From the NCBI GenBank assembly GCA_002068415.1, contig MVZM01000003.1:40306-104305 (forward strand): 64,000 nucleotides of DNA. Direction: 5' to 3'. The notes under the pieces were generated by a model. The model saw only the letters and a list, made by a program, of their open reading frames with translations. It was not told the DNA's origin and did not search any database. Of this stretch, positions 8,311-19,348 are shown one piece after another. The translations under genes and the position numbers were made by a program. The first letter of the stretch is position 1; every line of letters begins with the position of its first letter. The stretch is from Tenericutes bacterium ADurb.BinA124 (GTDB lineage Bacteria > Bacillota_I > Bacilli_A > ML615J-28 > CAG-698).

Positions 8311-9508
8311 AGGCTAAATTAGGTATTTCCTGGGCCTTTTTCAAAGTTATTTTGGTAATAATCGGACCAACCAGTTCATAAACCAAGGTTGCTGCCAACA
8401 CAATCGTGCGGATTTGGGAACCCATCTCAGGATTAAGAATTTGGGTCGCAATGAGGCTTAAACCGATGGCCACCCCGGCTTGGGGAATCAAAGTAAAACC
8501 TAAGTATTTCGCAATCTTAGGATCCGCATGGGTTACTTTGCTGCCAAACCAAGCCCCGAAGATTTTACCGGCAACCCGGGTGATGATATAAACAAGACCA
8601 ATAATACCGACAATCTTGAGGATTGATAGCTTTAATTCCGCCCCACTTAAAACAAAAAACATCATGAAAATCGGTGGGGTAATATAATGGGTTAGTCCGT
8701 TCACCTCATCATAATCCTTGCTGATGTTGGCAAAAAGACCGCCAAAGGCCATGCAGGCCAACAAAACCGAACCGCCTAAATAATCAGTTAAAAAGATAGT
8801 TAAAAAGACAAAGGCTAAAGTTAGAGAAATCCGATTACCGCGATTGGAAAACCACTTACAAGCAAAGTTTAACACAATCCCAAAAAAGGCGCCAATGCCC
8901 AAAGAAAAGATGATTTCCCAAATCGGTTTAATGATTTGAATGAACAGGGAACTATCACCATTGCCCCCTAAACCGTTGGCAATCGCCACATTGATGCCAA
9001 ACAGCATTAAGGCCACCGAATCATCAAGGGCCACGACGCTCATTAGCATTTCCGTAAGCGGTCCGGAAGCCCAGTATTGCCTCACCACCATTAAGGTTGC
9101 GGCCGGTGCGGTCGCCGCAGCAATCGCCGATAACACCAAGGAAAAGCGAATATTCGTTAAATCGAGCGTTCCTTTAATAGCAAAGAAAACAATTAAGCCG
9201 CCAAAAACAAACAACACGGCAAATAATGATTCAAAGATGGCAATTACAATCGGTCTCGTCCCGACTTTTTTAAAATAGCTGAGCTTTAATTCATTGCCAA
9301 TGGAAAAGGCAATAAAACCGAGGGCAACTTGCGAAACCAAATTTAAGGAAAGCAGTTGATCTTCGCCAACCAAACCGAGGACACTGGGACCAATAATTAA
9401 ACCACCAACTAAATAACCGGTAACATTCGGTAAATGTGAGTATTTAGCTAATTTACCAAACAAAAGTCCGGTTACTAAAACAATCCCCGCATATAATAAA
9501 ATATCCAT
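8309..9508 (-). CDS. Monovalent cation:proton antiporter, CPA2 family (Kef/NapA-like), 399 aa, about 12 TM segments.
   Basis: ORF track. N-terminal LPNVTGYLVGGLIIGPSVLG is a typical CPA2 signature. Polytopic membrane protein. Confidence 0.75.
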   Translation of the reverse strand: MDILLYAGIVLVTGLLFGKLAKYSHLPNVTGYLVGGLIIGPSVLGLVGEDQLLSLNLVSQVALGFIAFSIGNELKLSYFKKVGTRPIVIAIFESLFAVLFVFGGLIVFFAIKGTLDLTNIRFSLVLSAIAAATAPAATLMVVRQYWASGPLTEMLMSVVALDDSVALMLFGINVAIANGLGGNGDSSLFIQIIKPIWEIIFSLGIGAFFGIVLNFACKWFSNRGNRISLTLAFVFLTIFLTDYLGGSVLLACMAFGGLFANISKDYDEVNGLTHYITPPIFMMFFVLSGAELKLSILKIVGIIGLVYIITRVAGKIFGAWFGSKVTHADPKIAKYLGFTLIPQAGVAIGLSLIATQILNPEMGSQIRTIVLAATLVYELVGPIITKITLKKAQEIPNLA

Positions 9509-9510
9509 AG

Positions 9511-9846
9511 CTACTTCTTATACCCTTTTACATACTCAATATTAAGCGTAAAAACAATGCCAGAATTCGGTTTGGATAAATCACCGGCTAAACGATCAAT
9601 TATATCTAAAACCCTTGGCACTTGTTCATCTTCCAAAGCCATCAAAATAACTCGTGAATCCGTCCTTGGCGTATCAAAGATGGCTTTTAAGGACCCGATA
9701 ATATCAAAGTTATCGCTTTCAACTAATTTTCTACCCATCCCCGTACTGTTTAAAATCGTGGCGCCTCTAATTTGCGCATCTTTCAACTCGTGAACAAAGC
9801 GGTCTAAAAGATTAACATTATTCATCACATAAACTAACAGTTTCAT
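9511..9846 (-). CDS. PII-like signal-transduction protein of the PstA/DarA type (putative c-di-AMP receptor), 111 aa. Translationally adjacent to the antiporter (2-nt gap).
   Basis: MKLLVYVMNNVNLLDRFVHELKDAQIRGATILNSTGMGRK aligns by eye with B. subtilis DarA [36 protein letters not shown]. The size matches PII-like c-di-AMP receptors. Confidence 0.5.
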   Translation of the reverse strand: MKLLVYVMNNVNLLDRFVHELKDAQIRGATILNSTGMGRKLVESDNFDIIGSLKAIFDTPRTDSRVILMALEDEQVPRVLDIIDRLAGDLSKPNSGIVFTLNIEYVKGYKK

Positions 9847-9899
9847 ATTTACCTCACTTGTCTTTATTCATTATACCCCGATGTTAGCTTGATAGCAAT

Positions 9900-9945
9900 A
9901 AAAAAAAGCTAAGAAATAACTAACGGATTTCTTAGCTTTAATAAT
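9900..9945 (-). terminator. Rho-independent terminator of the ferritin gene (12-bp perfect stem AAGCTAAGAAAT/ATTTCTTAGCTT, then U8 on the minus strand).
   Basis: Hairpin and T-run read directly from the sequence. Confidence 0.8.
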
Positions 9946-9952
9946 ATGAACA

Positions 9953-10474
9953 TTAATCTAAATTAAGTGATGGAGCAACAAACTGACGCGCTTTCAATTC
10001 TCGATCAAGGGCATAAAGGCTCCCGCCATGTTTTCCAAAGTTCTCGTAAGCGGAAATTAAATTCTCAGCATTCATTTCTTCCTCACCCTGTTCTTTCACA
10101 AACCAGTTTAAGAATTCAATGGTGCGATAATCTTTCAAGGACAAGGCCACATCATAAATATGATGAATGGAGGCGGTAACAAATTGTTCGTGTTCCAAGG
10201 CACCATGAAGGGGATCTTTCAACTCCTTATAAACTAAATGCGGTTTCGCAATCGCATCCAGCGTAACATTAAAACCATTGTTTTGTAAATATTTGATAAA
10301 CAACATCGCATGGCTTTGTTCTTCTAAAGCCTGGACATTGAACCAATTGGCAAATCCTTCCAAACCTTTGTTTTGATAGAAATTAGCCATATCTAAATAT
10401 AAATAAGCTGAATAAAATTCTTTGTTTATTTGTTCATTTAATAATTTTGTTACTTTTTCGTTTAACATTTTCAT
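9953..10474 (-). CDS. ftnA: Bacterial non-haem ferritin (173 aa)
   Basis: Ferritin-like di-iron ligand pattern (E..EE.H ... E..H). Strong resemblance to FtnA over its whole length. Confidence 0.85.
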   Translation of the reverse strand: MKMLNEKVTKLLNEQINKEFYSAYLYLDMANFYQNKGLEGFANWFNVQALEEQSHAMLFIKYLQNNGFNVTLDAIAKPHLVYKELKDPLHGALEHEQFVTASIHHIYDVALSLKDYRTIEFLNWFVKEQGEEEMNAENLISAYENFGKHGGSLYALDRELKARQFVAPSLNLD

Positions 10475-10510
10475 TTCTCACCTTTCTATAAGGTTTTTCC
10501 TTACATAAAG

Positions 10511-10540
10511 ATTATAACATATTTATTTTTAATAATTCAA
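10511..10540 (-). promoter_or_regulatory. Sigma-A promoter of the ferritin gene (-35 TTGAAT, 18-nt spacer, -10 TATAAT on the minus strand).
   Basis: Read as the reverse complement of 10511..10540. Confidence 0.5.
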
Positions 10541-10551
10541 CTGAAATGCTT

Positions 10552-11829
10552 TTAGCTCCAAATGAACCAAAGCAATAAATAACCGGTGATAACTGCTGCC
10601 AAGGTGAAAGGAATTCCGATTTTAAAGAAATCGGAGTTTTTGACTTCATAACCTTCTTTCCGCAAAATCCCAATCCCGGCAATGTTGGCAGAAGCGCCAA
10701 TCGGTGTTAAGTTGCCACCTAAAGTAGCACCTACCAATAGGCCAAAGTATAAGATATAGGGCTCAATGCCAAGCTGTAAAGCGATGGCGGAAACCACGGG
10801 CAACATCGTTGCCACATAGGGAATATTATCAATGAAGGCGGAAAAGAGGACAGACGCCCATAAAATTAAGGTATAAATCAAGAATAAATTATTACCGCTG
10901 GCCTTCACAAACAATTGGCTAATTTTATCAATGACTCCGGCTTCAGTAATCCCACCAATCACAACAAATAAACCGATTAATAATAATAAGGTCGTATAAT
11001 CAATTTCTTTTAAAGCCTCCACAAAGGGTTTTATTTCTCTCTTCACAATTATTTTACGGGTAATCCCGACAATGAATAAGGAAACACAGATAATCCCGTT
11101 AATCAATCCTCCGGTTGCTGCGGAAAGTTTGGGGAAGAAAGAAGCAATAATCAACAACACAATCACACCAAGTAATAAAACAGTTGGAAAATAATCTTTA
11201 ACTTCGGTTTTTTGGACTTCTTCCACTTTAGCGGTTTCTTTTCGGAAAATCCAAAGTAAGATTAAAGCGGAAACCAAGGCTCCGGCTTGCACAACCCAGA
11301 AAATCCCAACCTTCCCTTTAAAAAAGAAAAAGTCTAAAAAGTTCATGTTCGCCTCACCACCCAACAAAATGGAGGTAGTGTCACCAACCAAGGTGGCAGC
11401 GCCTTGCAAATTAGAGGATACGGCAATGGCAATAACCATGCCCACCGGCGAAATCTCTAATTTCTTGGCAATGTTTAATGCGACCGGAGCAATCATTAAG
11501 ACTGTAGCCACATTGTCAATAAAGGCGGAGATTAAGCCCGCAAAGAGCGCTAAAATAAAAATCGTCCATTTAACATTCGGCATTTTCGCAATAATAAAAT
11601 CCGCCAGCCGCGAGGGCATTTTCGATTCTATAAACAATCCCACAACGCCCATCGTCCCAAAGATCATCATAATGACATTCCAATCAATGGCTCCCAAAAC
11701 TTTATTAAGGGGAATAATTCCTAAAATAATAAACACCGCCGCCGAAGTAAGGGCCACATAAGCGCGGTATTTAGGAAGGGCCAACAATAACACATAAGTA
11801 CATGCAAATAAGATTAGCGCTAAAACCAT
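10552..11829 (-). CDS. ArsB/NhaD-superfamily anion permease (425 aa, polytopic)
   Basis: ORF track. Motifs IDNVATVLMIAP and AFIDNIPYVATMLPV are typical of the ArsB/NhaD/CitMHS ion-transporter superfamily. Assignment within the superfamily is uncertain. Confidence 0.55.
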   Translation of the reverse strand: MVLALILFACTYVLLLALPKYRAYVALTSAAVFIILGIIPLNKVLGAIDWNVIMMIFGTMGVVGLFIESKMPSRLADFIIAKMPNVKWTIFILALFAGLISAFIDNVATVLMIAPVALNIAKKLEISPVGMVIAIAVSSNLQGAATLVGDTTSILLGGEANMNFLDFFFFKGKVGIFWVVQAGALVSALILLWIFRKETAKVEEVQKTEVKDYFPTVLLLGVIVLLIIASFFPKLSAATGGLINGIICVSLFIVGITRKIIVKREIKPFVEALKEIDYTTLLLLIGLFVVIGGITEAGVIDKISQLFVKASGNNLFLIYTLILWASVLFSAFIDNIPYVATMLPVVSAIALQLGIEPYILYFGLLVGATLGGNLTPIGASANIAGIGILRKEGYEVKNSDFFKIGIPFTLAAVITGYLLLWFIWS

Positions 11830-11873
11830 TCTGTCACCTCATAAAAACTGTTCTTATTGTAACATAAAGCCCT
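11824..11873. repeat. Left copy of a 49-bp direct repeat (AACCATTCTGTCACCTCATAAAAACTGTTCTTATTGTAACATAAAGCCC). Includes the start codon and RBS of the permease gene.
   Basis: Matches 13963..14012 with 2 mismatches and a 1-nt indel. Found by eye. Confidence 0.85.
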
Positions 11874-12112
11874 TTAAACTGCAACCATTGGTCTTTAGAA
11901 TCCACCTTAGAAGCTACAAAAATGGCATTTTAGAACTTACATATGATTGTTTACAAGGCTAAATTAATTAGCCAAGCATGTTAAAGAGATACTTAAGAGA
12001 ACCAAAACAAGTGAAATCTTTGAATAATAACCAATGGTTTTATTAAAATGAAAAACTATGCAAATAATAAAAACAATTTGATTCGGATAGACAAATTTAA
12101 TAACAATATGAC

Positions 12113-12160
12113 AAAACCCACCGCATGTAAAGTTGCAGTGGGTTTGATCATTTTATAGTT
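12113..12160 (-). terminator. Probable terminator downstream of the SDH-protease gene (CCCACCGCA...TGCAGTGGG hairpin followed by a U-rich tract on the minus strand).
   Basis: Imperfect 9-bp stem plus TTTTGT. Moderate quality. Confidence 0.4.
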
Positions 12161-12246
12161 TATTATAAAAATTAGTGCTTTTTGACCATAAAACCACAAA
12201 TTTTTAAAGAAGTTAATTGTCACACAACAATATTGTAAATATTTGA

Positions 12247-13122
12247 TTAAATTTGACGAATCAGAGCTCTTCCTTCTTGGTTTTCAATTAATTTAATTGC
12301 TCTTGTAGATGAAATGGTAATTGTGGAAGCATGATAGATGCTCAACACTAAATCTTGTAATATCGCGTCATCTTCTAAACGAACAATTTTTAATCCCATA
12401 TCTATACAATATTGCAACGAAAAATGTCTAGCATGGGATTTGGCATTCATATTTAATTTTTTTACAATTTCTTTGATGATGTTAGTCTTGTTTTCGTCTT
12501 TAAACATATACTTTTCTAACCATTCTTGTACAAGAATTTTTGAAAGTTTCATAGCATCAAACACTCGATATAAAAAAGCTGCGGGGTATTTCGACAACAA
12601 TTGACGCCAATATTCAGAAGACTGAGGATTATCAGTTAACTCTTTTTTGGCATTCTTAAATTCCTCTATGATGTTGAAGGCAGGTATGCCACCAAATTGA
12701 GGATCAACGGGACCTAAGCAGGATTGCTTTCCCATTATTATTTCCTTCGCAGCACAAGCGAACATTGTCCCTGCTGACATTGCCATATGGGGAACAATTA
12801 CCCTAACATCATTATTAAACACCGAATGCAAATAATTAACAATGTGTTCTGTTGCTGTAGGATCACCACCGGGTGAATGTAAAATAATATCTACACCTTG
12901 ACTTTTATTCAATTTATTGACAGTTGTCATAAAACCAGGCATATCCAAATCGGTAATATCCGTTCCTGGCATTTGCGGTTTTTCTAGCCATCCAGAATAA
13001 TATAGGATGGTGTTTCGCCCCGTGTGATTAGATAGTTTTTTTAAGTAAGTTCTTCTAACCAAGTCAACATTATTATTATTTGTTTTTATCTCTTCAAGTA
13101 TTTCATTCCATGACCCCATCAA
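12247..13122 (-). CDS. SDH-family (S49-like, ClpP-fold) serine protease, 291 aa
   Basis: ILHSPGGD...MAMSAGTMFA is the ClpP/SppA-type Gly-Gly-Asp ... Ser-Ala-Gly catalytic neighbourhood. The size matches the serine-dehydrogenase-proteinase family. No signal peptide. Confidence 0.6.
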   Translation of the reverse strand: MMGSWNEILEEIKTNNNNVDLVRRTYLKKLSNHTGRNTILYYSGWLEKPQMPGTDITDLDMPGFMTTVNKLNKSQGVDIILHSPGGDPTATEHIVNYLHSVFNNDVRVIVPHMAMSAGTMFACAAKEIIMGKQSCLGPVDPQFGGIPAFNIIEEFKNAKKELTDNPQSSEYWRQLLSKYPAAFLYRVFDAMKLSKILVQEWLEKYMFKDENKTNIIKEIVKKLNMNAKSHARHFSLQYCIDMGLKIVRLEDDAILQDLVLSIYHASTITISSTRAIKLIENQEGRALIRQI

Positions 13123-13307
13123 ATGCCTCCTTCAATTACCTGTGTTGAAGAAGAAAAAGTCATTTTTAACGATTGGTCTTTACCAGTATGGAGTTTATTT
13201 GGTAATACATATGAACCAATAAAATCAACATCTTTATTATTTATTTTTAAATCATCTAAAATTTTAATTATTTCTTCAATAGTTAATTCTTTATTTGTTT
13301 TTTTCAT
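13119..13307 (-). CDS. Small hypothetical protein (62 aa), translationally coupled to the protease by an ATGA overlap.
   Basis: Strong RBS AAGGAGA 7 nt upstream of the ATG at 13307 (MKKTNKELTIEEIIKILDDLK...). The track ORF begins 16 codons earlier without an RBS. 4-nt overlap with the protease start. Confidence 0.5.
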   Translation of the reverse strand: MKKTNKELTIEEIIKILDDLKINNKDVDFIGSYVLPNKLHTGKDQSLKMTFSSSTQVIEGGI

Positions 13308-13545
13308 TTTCTTTCTCCTTGTCGATTTAAAGTAAAACAACTTATATGGTTGCAAATAATTGTTTTATTTGATTTTGTTATAATAATAATATATCAAAAA
13401 AAAGGGCTTGTCAAATATTAGTTTTTGAAAAAATTATTAGTGCAAATATCAACTTAAAATTGACCACCCTCACCAATTAATAGTCAAATGCTTATCTTTT
13501 TTAGTATAATAATTACATTTATCATTAGGGGAAGAAATAATAATT

Positions 13546-13929
13546 TATGAATCTGATGATGGAGCAACTCATATTGAAGTAAAGTTGGAAGATGATAATA
13601 TTTGGTTAACTCAGCAACAAATGGCTGAACTTTTTAGCACTTCTAGGCCCAATGTAGTTATTCACATCGGAAATATCTATTCTGAGGGGGAACTTGATAA
13701 AATTTCAACCTATAAGAATTTTAAACAGCTTCGAAAAGAAGAAAATAGAATGGTTGAAAAGGAGATACCTTTTTATAATTTTGATATGATTATTTCTCTG
13801 GGATATAGAATTAAATCATCTTTAGCCATTAGATTTAGAATATGGGCAACTGAAAAACTTAAAGAATATATGATTAAAGGTTTTACAATGGCATCTTCAG
13901 CAGAAATTATCATTAATTCACTAATGTAA
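13546..13929 (+). pseudogene. Truncated RhuM-family (virulence protein RhuM-like) gene fragment. Corresponds to residues about 20-135 of the intact paralog at 28012..28725. Unrelated C-terminal tail.
   Basis: MNLMMGATHIEVKLEDDNIWLTQQQMAELF...MIISLGYRIKSSLAIRFRIWATEKLKEYMIKGFTM aligns almost residue-for-residue with the 237-aa protein at 28012..28725 and then diverges and terminates. Confidence 0.7.
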
Positions 13930-13962
13930 TAGCTCGGTATTTTTTCGATAGTGTTAATTAAT

Positions 13963-14012
13963 CAACCATTCTGTCACCTCATAAAAACTCTTCTTGTTGT
14001 AACATAAAAGCC
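13963..14012. repeat. Right copy of the 49-bp direct repeat flanking the roughly 2.1 kb islet.
   Basis: AACCATTCTGTCACCTCATAAAAACTCTTCTTGTTGTAACATAAAAGCCC. Confidence 0.85.
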
Positions 14013-14043
14013 CCCATAATATCAATCATTTTGGGGGCTTTAT
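14008..14043. terminator. Bidirectional terminator hairpin (AAAGCCCCCA...TGGGGGCTTT) downstream of the ABC exporter operon.
   Basis: 9-bp G/C-rich stem with flanking A and T runs. Confidence 0.7.
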
Positions 14044-14047
14044 CATT

Positions 14048-14902
14048 TTATGATTTTTTAGTGCGGAGACGAAGGATGGAAATTCCGTAAAACAGAATCC
14101 CCATAACTACTAAAAACATGATGGCAAATAGCGGAGTAACTTGCCAATTCCCAATTTTAATCACCACTCCCATTTCAAGGGCAAATCTGGACATTTCGGC
14201 TTCCGGGGCTTGCGCAAACACTTCGCCCATCGGTTCTTTCATAATGATGGTGCGGAATAAGGCCACCGAATAGGTCCCCGGAAAAACTTTCATTAGTTTT
14301 TGAATAAAATCCGGTAAGGCCCCAACAGGAACATAAATGCCCATTAAAAACCCAATAATCGTTCCAATGATAATGGACAAGGTCGAAAAAGCATTTTGAG
14401 TACGAATAAAGGAAATGACTAAAAACAAGATGGCGGAATTTGCAAAAGTCGATAAAACAATCACACCGAAGACTTTTAATAAATCAAATAAACTTAAAAG
14501 CTCGCCACCATTGATGATGATATACAGTTCACCAAACACCAGAGCCAAACAAGACATGATAGTCCCGATGACAAACGAACTGATTAAATAACCGCCAATG
14601 AGCGTTGATTTCTTGATTGGCGACGAATAAAAATCCTTAACGATGTTTTTGGAATAATCCTCAACAATAACTCCTAAAGCTCCCAAGGTTGATGTCACAC
14701 TGGAAGCGGCTACTAAACCCGCTACAATCCAGCTATCCATTAAAAACCTTACTCCCGTAACTCCCCCTTCCCAGTTAGACATCATGTCCCCTAAGAAAAG
14801 CACATATAAACTCATAATAATAATGACACTTAAAGACGAGAAAAAAACGGAGGTTTTATCTCGAAAGAACAAACGGATATTTCGTTTCGCAATATTAATC
14901 AT
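14048..14902 (-). CDS. ABC-2 type transporter permease (284 aa, 6 TM)
   Basis: ORF track. Polytopic. 8-nt overlap with the upstream ATPase gene. Confidence 0.7.
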   Translation of the reverse strand: MINIAKRNIRLFFRDKTSVFFSSLSVIIIMSLYVLFLGDMMSNWEGGVTGVRFLMDSWIVAGLVAASSVTSTLGALGVIVEDYSKNIVKDFYSSPIKKSTLIGGYLISSFVIGTIMSCLALVFGELYIIINGGELLSLFDLLKVFGVIVLSTFANSAILFLVISFIRTQNAFSTLSIIIGTIIGFLMGIYVPVGALPDFIQKLMKVFPGTYSVALFRTIIMKEPMGEVFAQAPEAEMSRFALEMGVVIKIGNWQVTPLFAIMFLVVMGILFYGISILRLRTKKS

Positions 14903-15821
14903 AATCTTCTATTCCCCTTCCGGTGATTGATAAAAAGGCATCATCCATTGAGCCATTGACAACCGAAAAACTGATGATGTCATCTTGGTAACGGTTGATT
15001 AAAGGAATGGCATCCACGCTCCTAAGCAATCTGATTTTCACAACATCGGCAATCACCGTATATTCTAATTTTTCTTTTTTTAAAGCCTTTACAAAGGGCT
15101 CAAGTTCTTTGGGTTTCATCATCAAAGTATCGCGGGAATGTTTATTTTTTAGTTCCGTCGGCGTTCCCATTGCCGCAATACTTCCACCGACAATTACCAC
15201 GACATAATCAGCATTATCCGCTTCTTCCATATAATGGGTTGTGAGGAAGATGGTCATTCCAAAATCCGCACGCAGTTTTTCAATCGTTTTCCAAATCTGT
15301 TGTCGGCTCATCGGATCAAGTCCGGTTGTCGGTTCATCTAAAAACAAGATTTTGGGAACATTGATTAATGCGCGGGCAATATCAACACGGCGTTTTTGGC
15401 CGCCACTTAAGACTTTATAACGTCGGTTTTGAATATCTTCCAAATTTGTCATTTGTAAAGCATTCTGAACTTTGGCTTCGGCTTCTTTAGCCGAAAGACC
15501 ATATAAAGCGGCTCGAAACAATAAATTTTCTTTCACGGTCAATAACTCATCTAAGACCTTGTCTTGGAAAACAACGCCGATGGCTTTTTTTATCTCAAAA
15601 TCATCTTTGCCGATTTCCCAACCGTCAATTAGAATTCGACCCGAGTCCGCCTCTAAAATGGTGGTTAAAATATCAATGGTGGTGGATTTCCCCGCCCCAT
15701 TGGGACCTAAAAAGGCAAATAAATCGCCTTTTTTGACACTAAAATTGATGCCATTAACGGCATGAACATCTTTGTAACTTTTATGCAAATTACTAACTTC
15801 AATAATTTTTTCACTATTCAT
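14895..15821 (-). CDS. ABC transporter ATP-binding protein (308 aa)
   Basis: Walker A GPNGAGKST, signature LSGGQKRRV, Walker B ILFLDEPTTGLD. Confidence 0.9.
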   Translation of the reverse strand: MNSEKIIEVSNLHKSYKDVHAVNGINFSVKKGDLFAFLGPNGAGKSTTIDILTTILEADSGRILIDGWEIGKDDFEIKKAIGVVFQDKVLDELLTVKENLLFRAALYGLSAKEAEAKVQNALQMTNLEDIQNRRYKVLSGGQKRRVDIARALINVPKILFLDEPTTGLDPMSRQQIWKTIEKLRADFGMTIFLTTHYMEEADNADYVVVIVGGSIAAMGTPTELKNKHSRDTLMMKPKELEPFVKALKKEKLEYTVIADVVKIRLLRSVDAIPLINRYQDDIISFSVVNGSMDDAFLSITGRGIEDYD

Positions 15822-16362
15822 TGTGGTTCTTTTCCTCTTTCTGAAGACGTTTTTTTCTAATTCTTCCTAAATACATTAATATAAAAACAAGGCTAAGGGC
15901 AATGGAAACCCATTTGCCGGCCGTTAAAACACTGGCCACATAAGCTAAAATACCCGTTGACTGGGGATAGCGACTAAAAAAGATGATTAACAAAGTATTT
16001 TCGCCCCAATCGAATAAGAGGGCGAGAGTAGGAAAAAACAAAGCGATGCCCTTTTGTTTCATCATATTACACAAATGACCGATAATGACGGTCAAAGAAA
16101 ACCAATAAACAAGGGGCCAAATAATATCAAACCAATATTTGGATTGAATATAAACTTGGATTCCTTCAGGACCATAAATTTGCGCTAAATTGTTTAAAAT
16201 AGTCGGCGAATAAAAAATCATCATGTCGGGGATAAGGGCCGTATGGAGTTTCCTTAACAAAACCCCATTAACAATCGGTAAGATAACAATCACAAACACG
16301 GCTAGTAAAAGAAGGGAAATGATGACCATTCGACGATTTATGCTGGCAATTATTTTTTTCAT
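15814..16362 (-). CDS. Small polytopic membrane protein of unknown function (182 aa), first gene of the ABC-2 exporter operon.
   Basis: ORF track. 4-5 predicted TM helices. Operonic overlap with the ATPase. Confidence 0.5.
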   Translation of the reverse strand: MKKIIASINRRMVIISLLLLAVFVIVILPIVNGVLLRKLHTALIPDMMIFYSPTILNNLAQIYGPEGIQVYIQSKYWFDIIWPLVYWFSLTVIIGHLCNMMKQKGIALFFPTLALLFDWGENTLLIIFFSRYPQSTGILAYVASVLTAGKWVSIALSLVFILMYLGRIRKKRLQKEEKNHNE

Positions 16363-16691
16363 AATTCACCCTTTCAACATTCTATTATAAGCTTGTTATT
16401 CCGTCAACCAATACGCATTAAATCACCTTTTTTCTTCCTCTATTAATCAAGAGTGAGGGCAAATAAAAATCCTTATACGGAAGTAATACTATTTTTAGTT
16501 TTCTTGGTTTGTACCCACCTAATAAAGCAAAAACGATTAATCAAACGAGTGAAGCGATAATTATTCCTCGTTATTTTTTTTCCATATTCCACCTTTTCCT
16601 TGTTTTATTATCAACTCGACACTATTATACTATATGCCATACATTATTGTCAAGTAAAAAATATTATTATTTTATGATTGAAAAGTAATGA

Positions 16692-16722
16692 TAAAAAAAG
16701 GAGCAGTCTAGTTGCTCCCTTT
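16692..16722 (-). terminator. Terminator of the PAS-GGDEF-HD-GYP gene (GGGAGCAACTAGACTGCTCC followed by U7 on the minus strand).
   Basis: Hairpin with flanking A7/T-run read directly. Confidence 0.7.
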
Positions 16723-16789
16723 ATTCATGGATCATTTTTGCTTGGAAAGAAAGCTAAAGTGATATTTATTGAATGAATTTTGGCAAATT

Positions 16790-19348
16790 TTAAGCATCTT
16801 CTTCCATTAATTCAATAAATAAGGCGGCTAAATAAGGATCAAACTGCGTTCCCGCACAAGCTTTGATTTCCGCTAAAGCTTCTTCCGTTGTTTTGGTGGG
16901 ACGGTAGGAACGCTCTTGGGTCATGGCATCGAAAGCATCAACAATGCTGATGATGCGTGATAAGAGGGGAATTTCTTGACCTTTTAAACCTTGTGGATAG
17001 CCGGAACCGTCCCATTTTTCATGATGAGACAAAACATACTCGGCAATCGAACTCAGTTCCGGTGATGCTTTGGTAATGCGGTAACCAATTCCCGGATGTT
17101 TTTTGATTTCCTCCCATTCCGTAGCATTCAATTTCCCCGGCTTATTTAAAATATTACTATCAATGCCGACTTTGCCAATATCATGAAGCGTTGCCAATAA
17201 GGATAATTCATCAAGACCTTTTTGATTAAGGCCGAGTTTCTTGCCAACTCTTTCGGATAAAAGCCGCATTCGTTCCGCATGAGCTTCTGTTTCTTGGCTC
17301 TTTTCAAACATGGTGGCGGTAATGGACGAGACGAAGGAACTATGTAAACTGTTTCGTTCCAAGAGTTTGCGCTTATACATAAAATCTTCTGCTGTTTTTT
17401 GTACATTACTAATACTTTCCGTTACGCTTTCTTTAGTTGCAAAGCCCAAGGAGAGACTAATAATTGAACCTTTGCCGAGAGTATTGCTTTTATCTTTATC
17501 ACAGCGATCTTGAATCTTTTTTAAATAATAATAGGCGGTTTCGCTATCCGTATTCGGTAAAAGAACGGTAAATTCATCGCCTCCGGTGCGGGCGACCACA
17601 TCATCTTCTCGAACGGAGGTTTTGATAATTTCCGCTGTTCTTTTTATTAAGTAATCACCTTCATCATGACCAAAGGCATCATTGGTTAGTTTTAAACCAT
17701 TGATATCAGCAACAATAATCGACAATGGTAAATACTGTAGATGGTCTAAGCGGGCGCGTTCTTTATCAAAATACCCCCGATTATAAAGCCCTGTCAACAT
17801 ATCATGTTCACTCATATATTGGATTTCAATTTGTTTGCTTTTTTGTTCACTAATGTCAAGGATAAGTCCTTCTAAAGATTCCACAAATCCCATTTCATTA
17901 TAAACCGGTTGCCCTTGTTCAAGAACCCATTTTCGTTCTCCAGTGGCGGTGACAATGACGAACTCTTCCCGCACTGCTTGCCGATTTTTGACGGCATCAC
18001 CCCACACTTGCCACAAATGTTCTTGAAACTCGGGGGCAATTAATTCATTGAACGAAAGATCCCGATTATTGATGATGTTTTCCGGGCGATGGCCGGTTAA
18101 TTCGAAACATCCTTCCGACACAAATTGCATCGTCCAATTGCGATCAAAATTGCATTTATAAGCCATTCCCGGCAAATTAGATAACAAAACACTATGACTG
18201 TGAACACTTTCTTTCAACTGTTTTTCAACGGCTTTACGTCGCGTAATATCAAAGAAAGTAACCACGACGCCGGTAATTTGACCTTGTTGGAAAAGGGGAT
18301 GAGCAAAAACTTCAACACTGAAACTCGTGCGGTTCTTCCGCCAAAATACTTCTTTGTCTGAGTAAAAACCGGCTTTGGTTTTAAAGACTTGTGTAATTCC
18401 ACATTCTTCAACGGGAATTATTTGATTGAGAACATTATGGTGGTGGAAGAGTAAATGGGCATTTTTGCCAAGCAAATCACTTTCCCGTTCGTAACCAAGC
18501 AAGCGACGACAAATGAGATTACAGAATTTAATATTTCCTTCCAAATCAATAACAAAAAGGGCGGCAGTGGTGGTATTAAAAATGGATTTAAAAAATTCTT
18601 CGTTGCTGAAAAAATGACCGGGGGATGATGGGTTTTTCTTTAACAATTGAATATGAGCAATTAAACCCCTTACTTTTCCGGAAGCATTGCGCAAGTAAGT
18701 AATCTTATGAGAAGTAAGCAACGAAGTTTGGTTTTTATGAATCATTTCCACTTCCAATGTAAAAGGTTTTTCATCTTCATGGCCGTGGTCATCTTCAAAG
18801 AGTTGCATAAATAATGTTAGGGAAGAAACTGCAATTAAATTAAAAATGCTTTTTTGTTTGATTTCTTCCACCGAATAACCTAATAAAGAAACAACACCCG
18901 GACTAGCATAAGCGATTTGGTAATCGTTCCGGACAATTAAACTCATTTCGCCACTTTCTTCATAATCATGGTCGCTTAATTGATGGCTAATTTCTTGGTA
19001 ACAAATAATGACTTGATTTTTCTTGATTGATGAAGCACGCGCAAAATAATAAATCTTACTAAAGGCCGAATAACCTTTAAACTGCTTTTGGGTTTTGGTG
19101 TTTACCACTTCACAAAACTGCTTCCACAATTCCCATTCATCGAAAAAATCATTAAAGACCGCTCGACCTGCTTTTTTTAACACATGACTTCTATTTAAAC
19201 CCCAAAAGCCAAGCATGGTTTCATTGATTTCTAAAAAAGAAAAATCAATAATTTTAGATGCTTGTTTTTTCACCTTTAAAATAGCTAAACCGATGTCGTT
19301 TTCGCCAAACAATTGCTTCCATTGTGAAGATTTCATGATGTACCTCAT
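16790..19348 (-). CDS. Cytoplasmic multi-domain c-di-GMP protein (852 aa): PAS/PAS - GGDEF (RTGGDEFTVLL, canonical) - HD-GYP (HHEKWDGSGYP).
   Basis: Motifs read from the translation. No TM segments. Confidence 0.85.
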   Translation of the reverse strand: MRYIMKSSQWKQLFGENDIGLAILKVKKQASKIIDFSFLEINETMLGFWGLNRSHVLKKAGRAVFNDFFDEWELWKQFCEVVNTKTQKQFKGYSAFSKIYYFARASSIKKNQVIICYQEISHQLSDHDYEESGEMSLIVRNDYQIAYASPGVVSLLGYSVEEIKQKSIFNLIAVSSLTLFMQLFEDDHGHEDEKPFTLEVEMIHKNQTSLLTSHKITYLRNASGKVRGLIAHIQLLKKNPSSPGHFFSNEEFFKSIFNTTTAALFVIDLEGNIKFCNLICRRLLGYERESDLLGKNAHLLFHHHNVLNQIIPVEECGITQVFKTKAGFYSDKEVFWRKNRTSFSVEVFAHPLFQQGQITGVVVTFFDITRRKAVEKQLKESVHSHSVLLSNLPGMAYKCNFDRNWTMQFVSEGCFELTGHRPENIINNRDLSFNELIAPEFQEHLWQVWGDAVKNRQAVREEFVIVTATGERKWVLEQGQPVYNEMGFVESLEGLILDISEQKSKQIEIQYMSEHDMLTGLYNRGYFDKERARLDHLQYLPLSIIVADINGLKLTNDAFGHDEGDYLIKRTAEIIKTSVREDDVVARTGGDEFTVLLPNTDSETAYYYLKKIQDRCDKDKSNTLGKGSIISLSLGFATKESVTESISNVQKTAEDFMYKRKLLERNSLHSSFVSSITATMFEKSQETEAHAERMRLLSERVGKKLGLNQKGLDELSLLATLHDIGKVGIDSNILNKPGKLNATEWEEIKKHPGIGYRITKASPELSSIAEYVLSHHEKWDGSGYPQGLKGQEIPLLSRIISIVDAFDAMTQERSYRPTKTTEEALAEIKACAGTQFDPYLAALFIELMEEDA

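What the first reader, a model, noticed from the sequence alone, without database searches (positions are those of the whole stretch)
12247..13307. Translationally coupled small ORF plus SDH-family ClpP-fold serine protease: a candidate two-gene defence or toxin-antidote module
A 62-aa protein with a strong RBS overlaps the start of a 291-aa SDH-family protease by ATGA. It has a standalone promoter region and a probable terminator, and sits inside a flanked islet next to a RhuM fragment. Two-gene cassettes of a small protein plus a protease in mobile islets are typical of abortive-infection or toxin-antitoxin logic (a protease activated or inhibited by its partner). I know of no described system with this exact composition.
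Basis: inference. Interest (0 to 1): 0.55.

Follow-up and report, generated by a model that had tools for sequence, protein, structure and literature searches.

The report
Small-partner plus SDH protease defence cassette
This is an intact two-gene cassette, a 62-residue protein co-translated with a ClpP-fold "SDH" serine protease, in a decayed mobile islet; it belongs to a widespread prophage- and satellite-borne gene pair that DefenseFinder already lists as the anti-phage system FS_HP_SDH_sah, so it is a new member of a known but mechanistically unexplained kind.

Summary
On the minus strand, a 62-aa ORF (13307..13119) and a 290-aa SDH-type ClpP-fold protease (13119..12247) form one operon with a near-consensus promoter, two Shine-Dalgarno sites and a strong terminator hairpin. 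The junction is TGATG, not ATGA. The operon lies in a 2.1-kb low-GC islet bracketed by 45-nt direct repeats, next to a truncated RhuM gene.

The pairing is not chance. In 150 eligible related loci from all bacterial phyla and archaea, 95 carry a recognisable small partner directly upstream (usually overlapping) or directly downstream of the protease. No other neighbour is conserved. Contexts include prophage moron slots, a satellite-like integrative element and some defence genes, so a housekeeping role is excluded.

The partner evolves about three times faster than the protease. It keeps an N-terminal helix motif and a C-terminal Ser/Thr/Asn-rich strand.

DefenseFinder has FS_HP_SDH_sah (hypothetical protein plus SDH_sah). 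I confirmed the model name in a paper, but the experimental details come from memory.

The mechanism is unknown. My best guess is that the partner is a docked pseudo-substrate or inhibitor that keeps a cytoplasmic protease latent until infection.

Verdict: new member of a known kind, moderate-low interest.

The parts
13386..13414 (-). Sigma-70/SigA-type promoter of the cassette (TTGACA-17 nt-TATTAT)
   Evidence: 11 of 12 matches, the best-scoring site in 11800-14100. It lies 79 nt upstream of the small-ORF ATG.
13315..13320 (-). Shine-Dalgarno AAGGAG of the small ORF
   Evidence: Read directly from the sequence: AAGGAGAAAGAAAATG.
13119..13307 (-). Small partner gene, 62 aa (stop included). It has an N-terminal helix motif (LTIEEIIKILDDLKI) and a C-terminal strand plus Ser/Thr run (LKMTFSSSTQ).
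   Evidence: define the ORF. One search finds only three close homologues by direct search. One search gives dN/dS 0.14-0.44, with length and junction conserved. One search gives E = 1e-9 against the 48-aa upstream ORF of the 62%-identical protease locus L185. L185 in turn matches the downstream-family and upstream-family partner profiles. hhalign P-values are 2.4e-4 and 3.8e-3 against the two partner families. There is no Pfam, PHROG, PADLOC or NCBIfam match. The AF2 model is of low confidence: helix 10-19 and a hairpin at 28-54.
13126..13133 (-). Shine-Dalgarno GAAGGAGG of the protease, embedded in the last codons of the small ORF. The stop and start share one base (TGATG at 13121..13117).
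   Evidence: The junction is conserved as TGATG in L017 and TAATG in L018.
12247..13119 (-). SDH-type ClpP-fold serine protease, 290 aa, cytoplasmic. The nucleophile is Ser115 in AMSAGT. His81, Asp139, His229, Arg231, His232 and Lys276 are invariant or nearly invariant.
12103..12145 (-). Intrinsic-terminator-like hairpin (12-bp stem, 8-nt loop) with a U-rich tail, about 100 nt after the protease stop
   Evidence: dG -25.5 kcal/mol, z = -7.0.
11824..11868 (.). Left 45-nt direct repeat (att-like). It contains the 5' UTR, RBS and start codon of the ArsB/CitMHS-type permease gene.
   Evidence: family D1, 96% identity to the right copy.
13964..14008 (.). Right 45-nt direct repeat, directly beside the terminator hairpin of the ABC-2 transporter operon
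13585..13929 (+). Truncated RhuM-family gene (N-terminal third only), divergent from the cassette. It is a remnant of the same islet.
   Evidence: PF13310 matches profile positions 1-63 of 252. PADLOC candidate families PDC-S05 and PDC-S23 match at up to 3.7e-44.

Best explanation
The locus is an intact copy of a mobile two-gene cassette: a small hypervariable partner plus an SDH-type ClpP-fold serine protease. DefenseFinder catalogues this kind as the anti-phage system FS_HP_SDH_sah. The copy survives in the remnant of an integrative element.

Shown:
- The two genes form one transcription unit and are translationally coupled.
- The protease keeps all family-invariant residues and is under strong purifying selection.
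- The pairing with a small partner recurs across phyla, with the partner upstream and overlapping, downstream, or, in one phage lineage, convergent.
- The cassette travels on prophages, a satellite-like element and islands, with no other conserved neighbour.

Inferred working model:
- The protease is a cytoplasmic effector.
- The partner docks on it through its conserved N-terminal amphipathic helix. It lays its conserved C-terminal strand and Ser/Thr/Asn run in or near the active-site groove as a pseudo-substrate or pro-peptide-like inhibitor. Co-translation delivers the two proteins together.
- Phage infection removes or outcompetes the partner, either by shut-off of a labile protein or by binding of a phage protein.
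- The freed protease then cleaves phage or host proteins and aborts the infection.
For: Operon anatomy.

Family membership of the protease:
- PF01972 above cutoff.
- phrog_11747 over the full length.
- More than 3,400 homologues.
- 328 clusters at 50% identity with E <= 1e-30 among 1.84 billion representatives.

Conserved pairing:
- Partner profiles built without this lineage hit 51 loci directly upstream and 49 loci directly downstream of the protease at E < 1e-3. Hits elsewhere among 17,016 background ORFs were nearly absent.
- 95 of 150 eligible loci are positive.
- The two partner families are related: hhalign P = 6.9e-5.
- This window's small ORF links to them through L185, with E = 1e-9 and profile matches.

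Partner evolution: median identity is 21-26% for the partner against 60-69% for the protease, over the same locus pairs.

No other conserved neighbour: 158 Pfam families among 150 nearest large genes, none in more than 3.

Mobile and defence contexts:
- An integrase/repressor/VapE-primase element with MNT-HEPN and Mrr genes.
- E. coli lambdoid prophage moron slots, each with a 66-69-aa upstream ORF.
- A reverse-oriented moron between terminase and portal.
- HicAB next door in Porphyromonas phages.
- GmrSD next door.
- PD-T4-6, type I specificity and mad-system genes among the neighbours.
- 256 hits in IMG/VR; 19 of the 79 analysed loci lie within 1.5 kb of a contig end.

The SppA structure 4kwb, with its own C-termini bound in the active sites, is among the best fold matches. 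This is a precedent for a C-terminal tail occupying this kind of active site.
Against: - I could not run the DefenseFinder profiles. PADLOC 2.0 gives no hit. The NCBIfam equivalog NF047768 is far below cutoff, 90.9 against 250 bits.
- The experimental anti-phage result for HP+SDH_sah is recalled from memory. The paper is not held. It concerns an enterobacterial example. The E. coli relatives I could inspect are only 42-45% identical.
- Direct profile evidence that this small ORF belongs to the wider partner family is marginal: E = 0.06-0.7 among 17,016 ORFs. The link rests on one intermediate and on position.
- Nothing here shows binding, inhibition, cleavage or toxicity. The inhibitor model is one of several that fit.
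- In the Acholeplasma-type phage the partner-like gene lies in the late operon and the protease is antisense. This means the protease can be expressed without the partner in a lysogen. A simple obligate-antitoxin model does not predict that.
- The islet is decayed, and no empty site was found for comparison.
Confidence: 0.6

Rival explanations
1. Same defence cassette, opposite logic. The small protein is the sensor, adaptor or activator, or a pro-toxin substrate, rather than an inhibitor. Its fast-evolving middle region would recognise a phage protein and recruit it to the protease, or the protease would cleave the partner at the C-terminal Ser/Thr/Asn motif to release an active fragment.
For: The partner diverges much faster than the protease, as expected for a component in an arms race with phage proteins. 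The two short conserved motifs are separated by a variable linker. In the Acholeplasma-type phage the partner-like gene is transcribed with the late genes. That would switch the protease on late in that phage's own cycle.
Against: Antitoxins and disordered inhibitors also evolve fast. Tight translational coupling with the small gene first is the classic antidote-first order. There is no evidence of cleavage or recruitment.
Confidence: 0.25
2. A plain toxin-antitoxin or addiction module. It would stabilise the mobile element, with a protease toxin and a labile small antitoxin, and have no dedicated anti-phage role.
For: A small upstream gene overlaps a larger downstream gene under one promoter. 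The gene order can be swapped in relatives, as in some TA families. Known TA pairs lie adjacent in relatives: MNT-HEPN and HicAB. The cassette persists in a decayed islet.
Against: The partner has no detectable DNA-binding or known antitoxin domain. The protease family is catalogued among defence systems. The protease can be encoded without a co-transcribed partner, and about a third of loci have no partner recognised by the two profiles.
Confidence: 0.15
3. A function that serves the phage or mobile element itself. Examples are maturation of the small protein into a peptide signal or effector, or control of the element's own life cycle or superinfection exclusion, rather than host defence.
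For: 256 hits in viral contigs, and copies in isolated phages of Gordonia, Shewanella and Porphyromonas. A partner-like gene sits inside a late operon.
Against: The small proteins have no signal peptide or hydrophobic segment. The cassette also occurs far from any phage genes in many genomes, and here in an islet with no phage genes left. Prophage-borne accessory genes in moron slots are typically defence or conversion genes (established knowledge).
Confidence: 0.1
4. A housekeeping ClpP-, SppA- or NfeD-type protease, or a leftover prohead maturation protease of a dead prophage, with a chance upstream ORF.
For: The fold is ClpP/crotonase. There are weak hits to prohead-protease, SppA and NfeD models.
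Against: All those models score far below their cutoffs. The protein has no TM segment or signal peptide. There is no AAA+ partner, stomatin, capsid or portal gene nearby. In real phages the protein coexists with a separate prohead protease and lies outside or antisense to the head module. The chromosomal context is not conserved. The small ORF is under purifying selection and has homologues at the same position.
Confidence: 0.03

Closest known systems
DefenseFinder system FS_HP_SDH_sah (hypothetical protein + SDH_sah protease; from memory, derived from PICI-encoded systems in Fillol-Salom et al. 2022, Cell 185:3248)
   Same: Two adjacent genes, a small unannotated protein and a PF01972 protease, carried on phage-related mobile elements. 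E. coli prophage copies have the same layout, with a 66-69-aa ORF immediately upstream.
   Different: The protease here is only 42-45% identical to the E. coli copies inspected. The small partner is not alignable to theirs beyond the N-terminal helix motif. The host is an uncultured Bacilli MAG, and the element is decayed to a 2.1-kb islet. Membership by the DefenseFinder profiles could not be tested.
NfeD/STOPP protease 1510-N with its stomatin partner (Pyrococcus PH1510/PH1511)
   Different: NfeD is a membrane protein with a C-terminal OB domain, and its partner is a stomatin. Here both proteins are soluble, PF25145 is below cutoff, and the context is mobile rather than housekeeping.
SppA (signal peptide peptidase A, S49)
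   Same: The ClpP-fold core. The 4kwb structure, with C-termini bound in the active sites, offers a precedent for tail-in-groove inhibition or self-processing.
   Different: SppA is membrane-anchored and uses a Ser-Lys dyad. TIGR00706 scores 26 against 155 bits. No invariant Lys lies at the SppA or 1510-N spacing after Ser115.
Type II toxin-antitoxin operons
   Same: A small first gene overlaps a larger second gene under a single promoter. The small component evolves fast. The module is mobile and island-borne.
   Different: No DNA-binding antitoxin fold or known toxin family was detected. To my knowledge no characterised TA family has a ClpP-fold protease as its toxin.
Tai systems and their non-contiguous counter-defence genes (PMC11364771)
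   Same: Prophage- and satellite-borne defence genes whose companion gene can lie in the phage late operon. That resembles the Acholeplasma-type phage, where the partner-like ORF follows the terminase gene and the protease is antisense.
   Different: The Tai paper does not mention any protease or SDH domain. The resemblance is only in gene organisation.

Membership tests
DefenseFinder FS_HP_SDH_sah | A protease gene matching the SDH_sah profile (Pfam PF01972) | tested here: met
   PF01972 scores 81.2 bits against a cutoff of 31.3, although only residues 68-160 align. DefenseFinder's own profile was not available.
DefenseFinder FS_HP_SDH_sah | An adjacent 'HP' gene matching the system's HP profile | not testable with these tools
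   An adjacent, co-translated small gene is present and belongs to a partner family found beside these proteases. The DefenseFinder HP profile itself could not be run.
DefenseFinder FS_HP_SDH_sah | Demonstrated protection against phages | not testable with these tools
   This needs cloning and phage challenge. The original paper is not held.
DefenseFinder FS_HP_SDH_sah | Carriage on phage satellites, prophages or islands | tested here: met
   The window has a low-GC islet with 45-nt direct repeats. Relatives lie in a satellite-like element, in prophages and in phages.
Pfam PF01972 SDH_protease / PHROG 11747 | Score above the curated threshold; full-length similarity | tested here: met
   for PF01972; phrog_11747 at 3.2e-91, residues 16-289 against profile positions 2-287 of 290.
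NCBIfam NF047768 'SDH family Clp fold serine proteinase' (equivalog) | Whole-protein score of at least 250 bits | tested here: not met
   90.9 bits, core only. Relatives at 53-55% identity and the E. coli copies do carry this name in NCBI records.
ClpP (ATP-dependent Clp protease proteolytic subunit) | ClpP subfamily model score and a ClpP-type Ser-His-Asp arrangement | tested here: not met
   NF009205 scores 17.9 against 228 bits. PF00574 scores only 23.3 against 20.2 bits, over 62 residues. The segment 15-27 residues after Ser115 (GKQSCLGPVDPQF), where I recall the ClpP His lying, contains no His. One NCBI record names the protein 'ClpP'; that appears to be a mis-annotation.
ClpP (ATP-dependent Clp protease proteolytic subunit) | A partner AAA+ unfoldase gene in the neighbourhood | tested here: not met
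   No such gene lies in 9000-17000.
SppA / peptidase S49 | SppA domain model score; membrane anchoring | tested here: not met
   TIGR00706 scores 26.3 against 155.45 bits. No hydrophobic segment: the maximum 19-residue Kyte-Doolittle mean is 1.27.
ClpP-related prohead maturation protease | Model score and position in a head-morphogenesis module | tested here: not met
   NF045542 scores 36.8 against 120 bits. There are no capsid or portal genes in the islet. In phages it coexists with a distinct prohead protease.
NfeD / STOPP | NfeD N-terminal domain score; adjacent stomatin gene | tested here: not met
   PF25145 scores 21.3 against 40 bits. No stomatin gene is present.
Type II toxin-antitoxin | A small antitoxin gene overlapping a toxin gene in one operon | tested here: met
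Type II toxin-antitoxin | A recognisable antitoxin DNA-binding domain or known toxin family; toxicity neutralised by the partner | tested here: inconclusive
   No domain was found in the small protein. The AF2 model is of low confidence. Toxicity cannot be tested here.
PADLOC-DB 2.0 systems | A match of either protein to any system model | tested here: not met
   Zero families for both proteins at E <= 0.1. Only the neighbouring RhuM fragment matches, to PDC-S05 and PDC-S23.

The most novel reading that the evidence does not exclude
The small protein is a detachable, pro-peptide-like pseudo-substrate. Its gene can be moved relative to the protease gene to time protease activity: upstream and coupled, downstream, or into a phage's late operon with the protease antisense. 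In islands it would keep the protease latent until infection. In temperate phages it would act as a built-in antidote that spares the phage's own lytic cycle from its own defence protease. This would be a non-contiguous-operon solution to autoimmunity for a protease-based system.
Probability: 0.2. Interest if true: 0.6.

Novelty: new member of a known kind. Interest (0 to 1): 0.3.

Why it matters
As far as I know, HP+SDH_sah is one of the catalogued anti-phage systems with no published mechanism. The window itself adds only a divergent Bacillota member.

The comparison made here gives concrete handles:
- The unannotated 'HP' appears to be one fast-evolving family with two short conserved motifs.
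- Its gene order relative to the protease is flexible.
- The protease has a fixed set of invariant residues (Ser115, Asp139, His229, Arg231, His232, Lys276) and a unique C-terminal domain with no solved relative.

These points define mutants and complexes that would show whether bacteria use a ClpP-fold protease held in check by a mini-partner as an immune effector.

Tried and rejected
- PADLOC, Pfam, NCBIfam and PHROGs on the small protein gave nothing.
- A direct homology search with the small protein found only three near-identical lineage members. A profile of 55 partner sequences against 5.8 billion proteins returned 11 hits, all unnamed and without Pfam domains.
The small protein alone folds with low confidence.
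- The Fillol-Salom 2022 paper could not be retrieved by DOI or PMID. Text searches for SDH, PF01972 or PICI found nothing describing the system.
- The Tai paper was checked as a possible description of this system. It does not mention a protease.
- Two exact-pattern scans of metagenome contigs for an empty insertion site found none.
- An apparent natural fusion, P0217, has its N-terminal 67 aa matching the upstream partner profile at 4e-11. Its protease is also interrupted on its only contig, so I do not count it as a Rosetta-stone fusion.
- The C-terminal extension of P0138 looked partner-like by eye but scores nothing.
- The 55-aa ORF at 12056..12223 overlaps the terminator and has no match. 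I treat it as non-coding.
- The 78-aa TTG-extended version of the small ORF is rejected because the extension is not conserved in L017.
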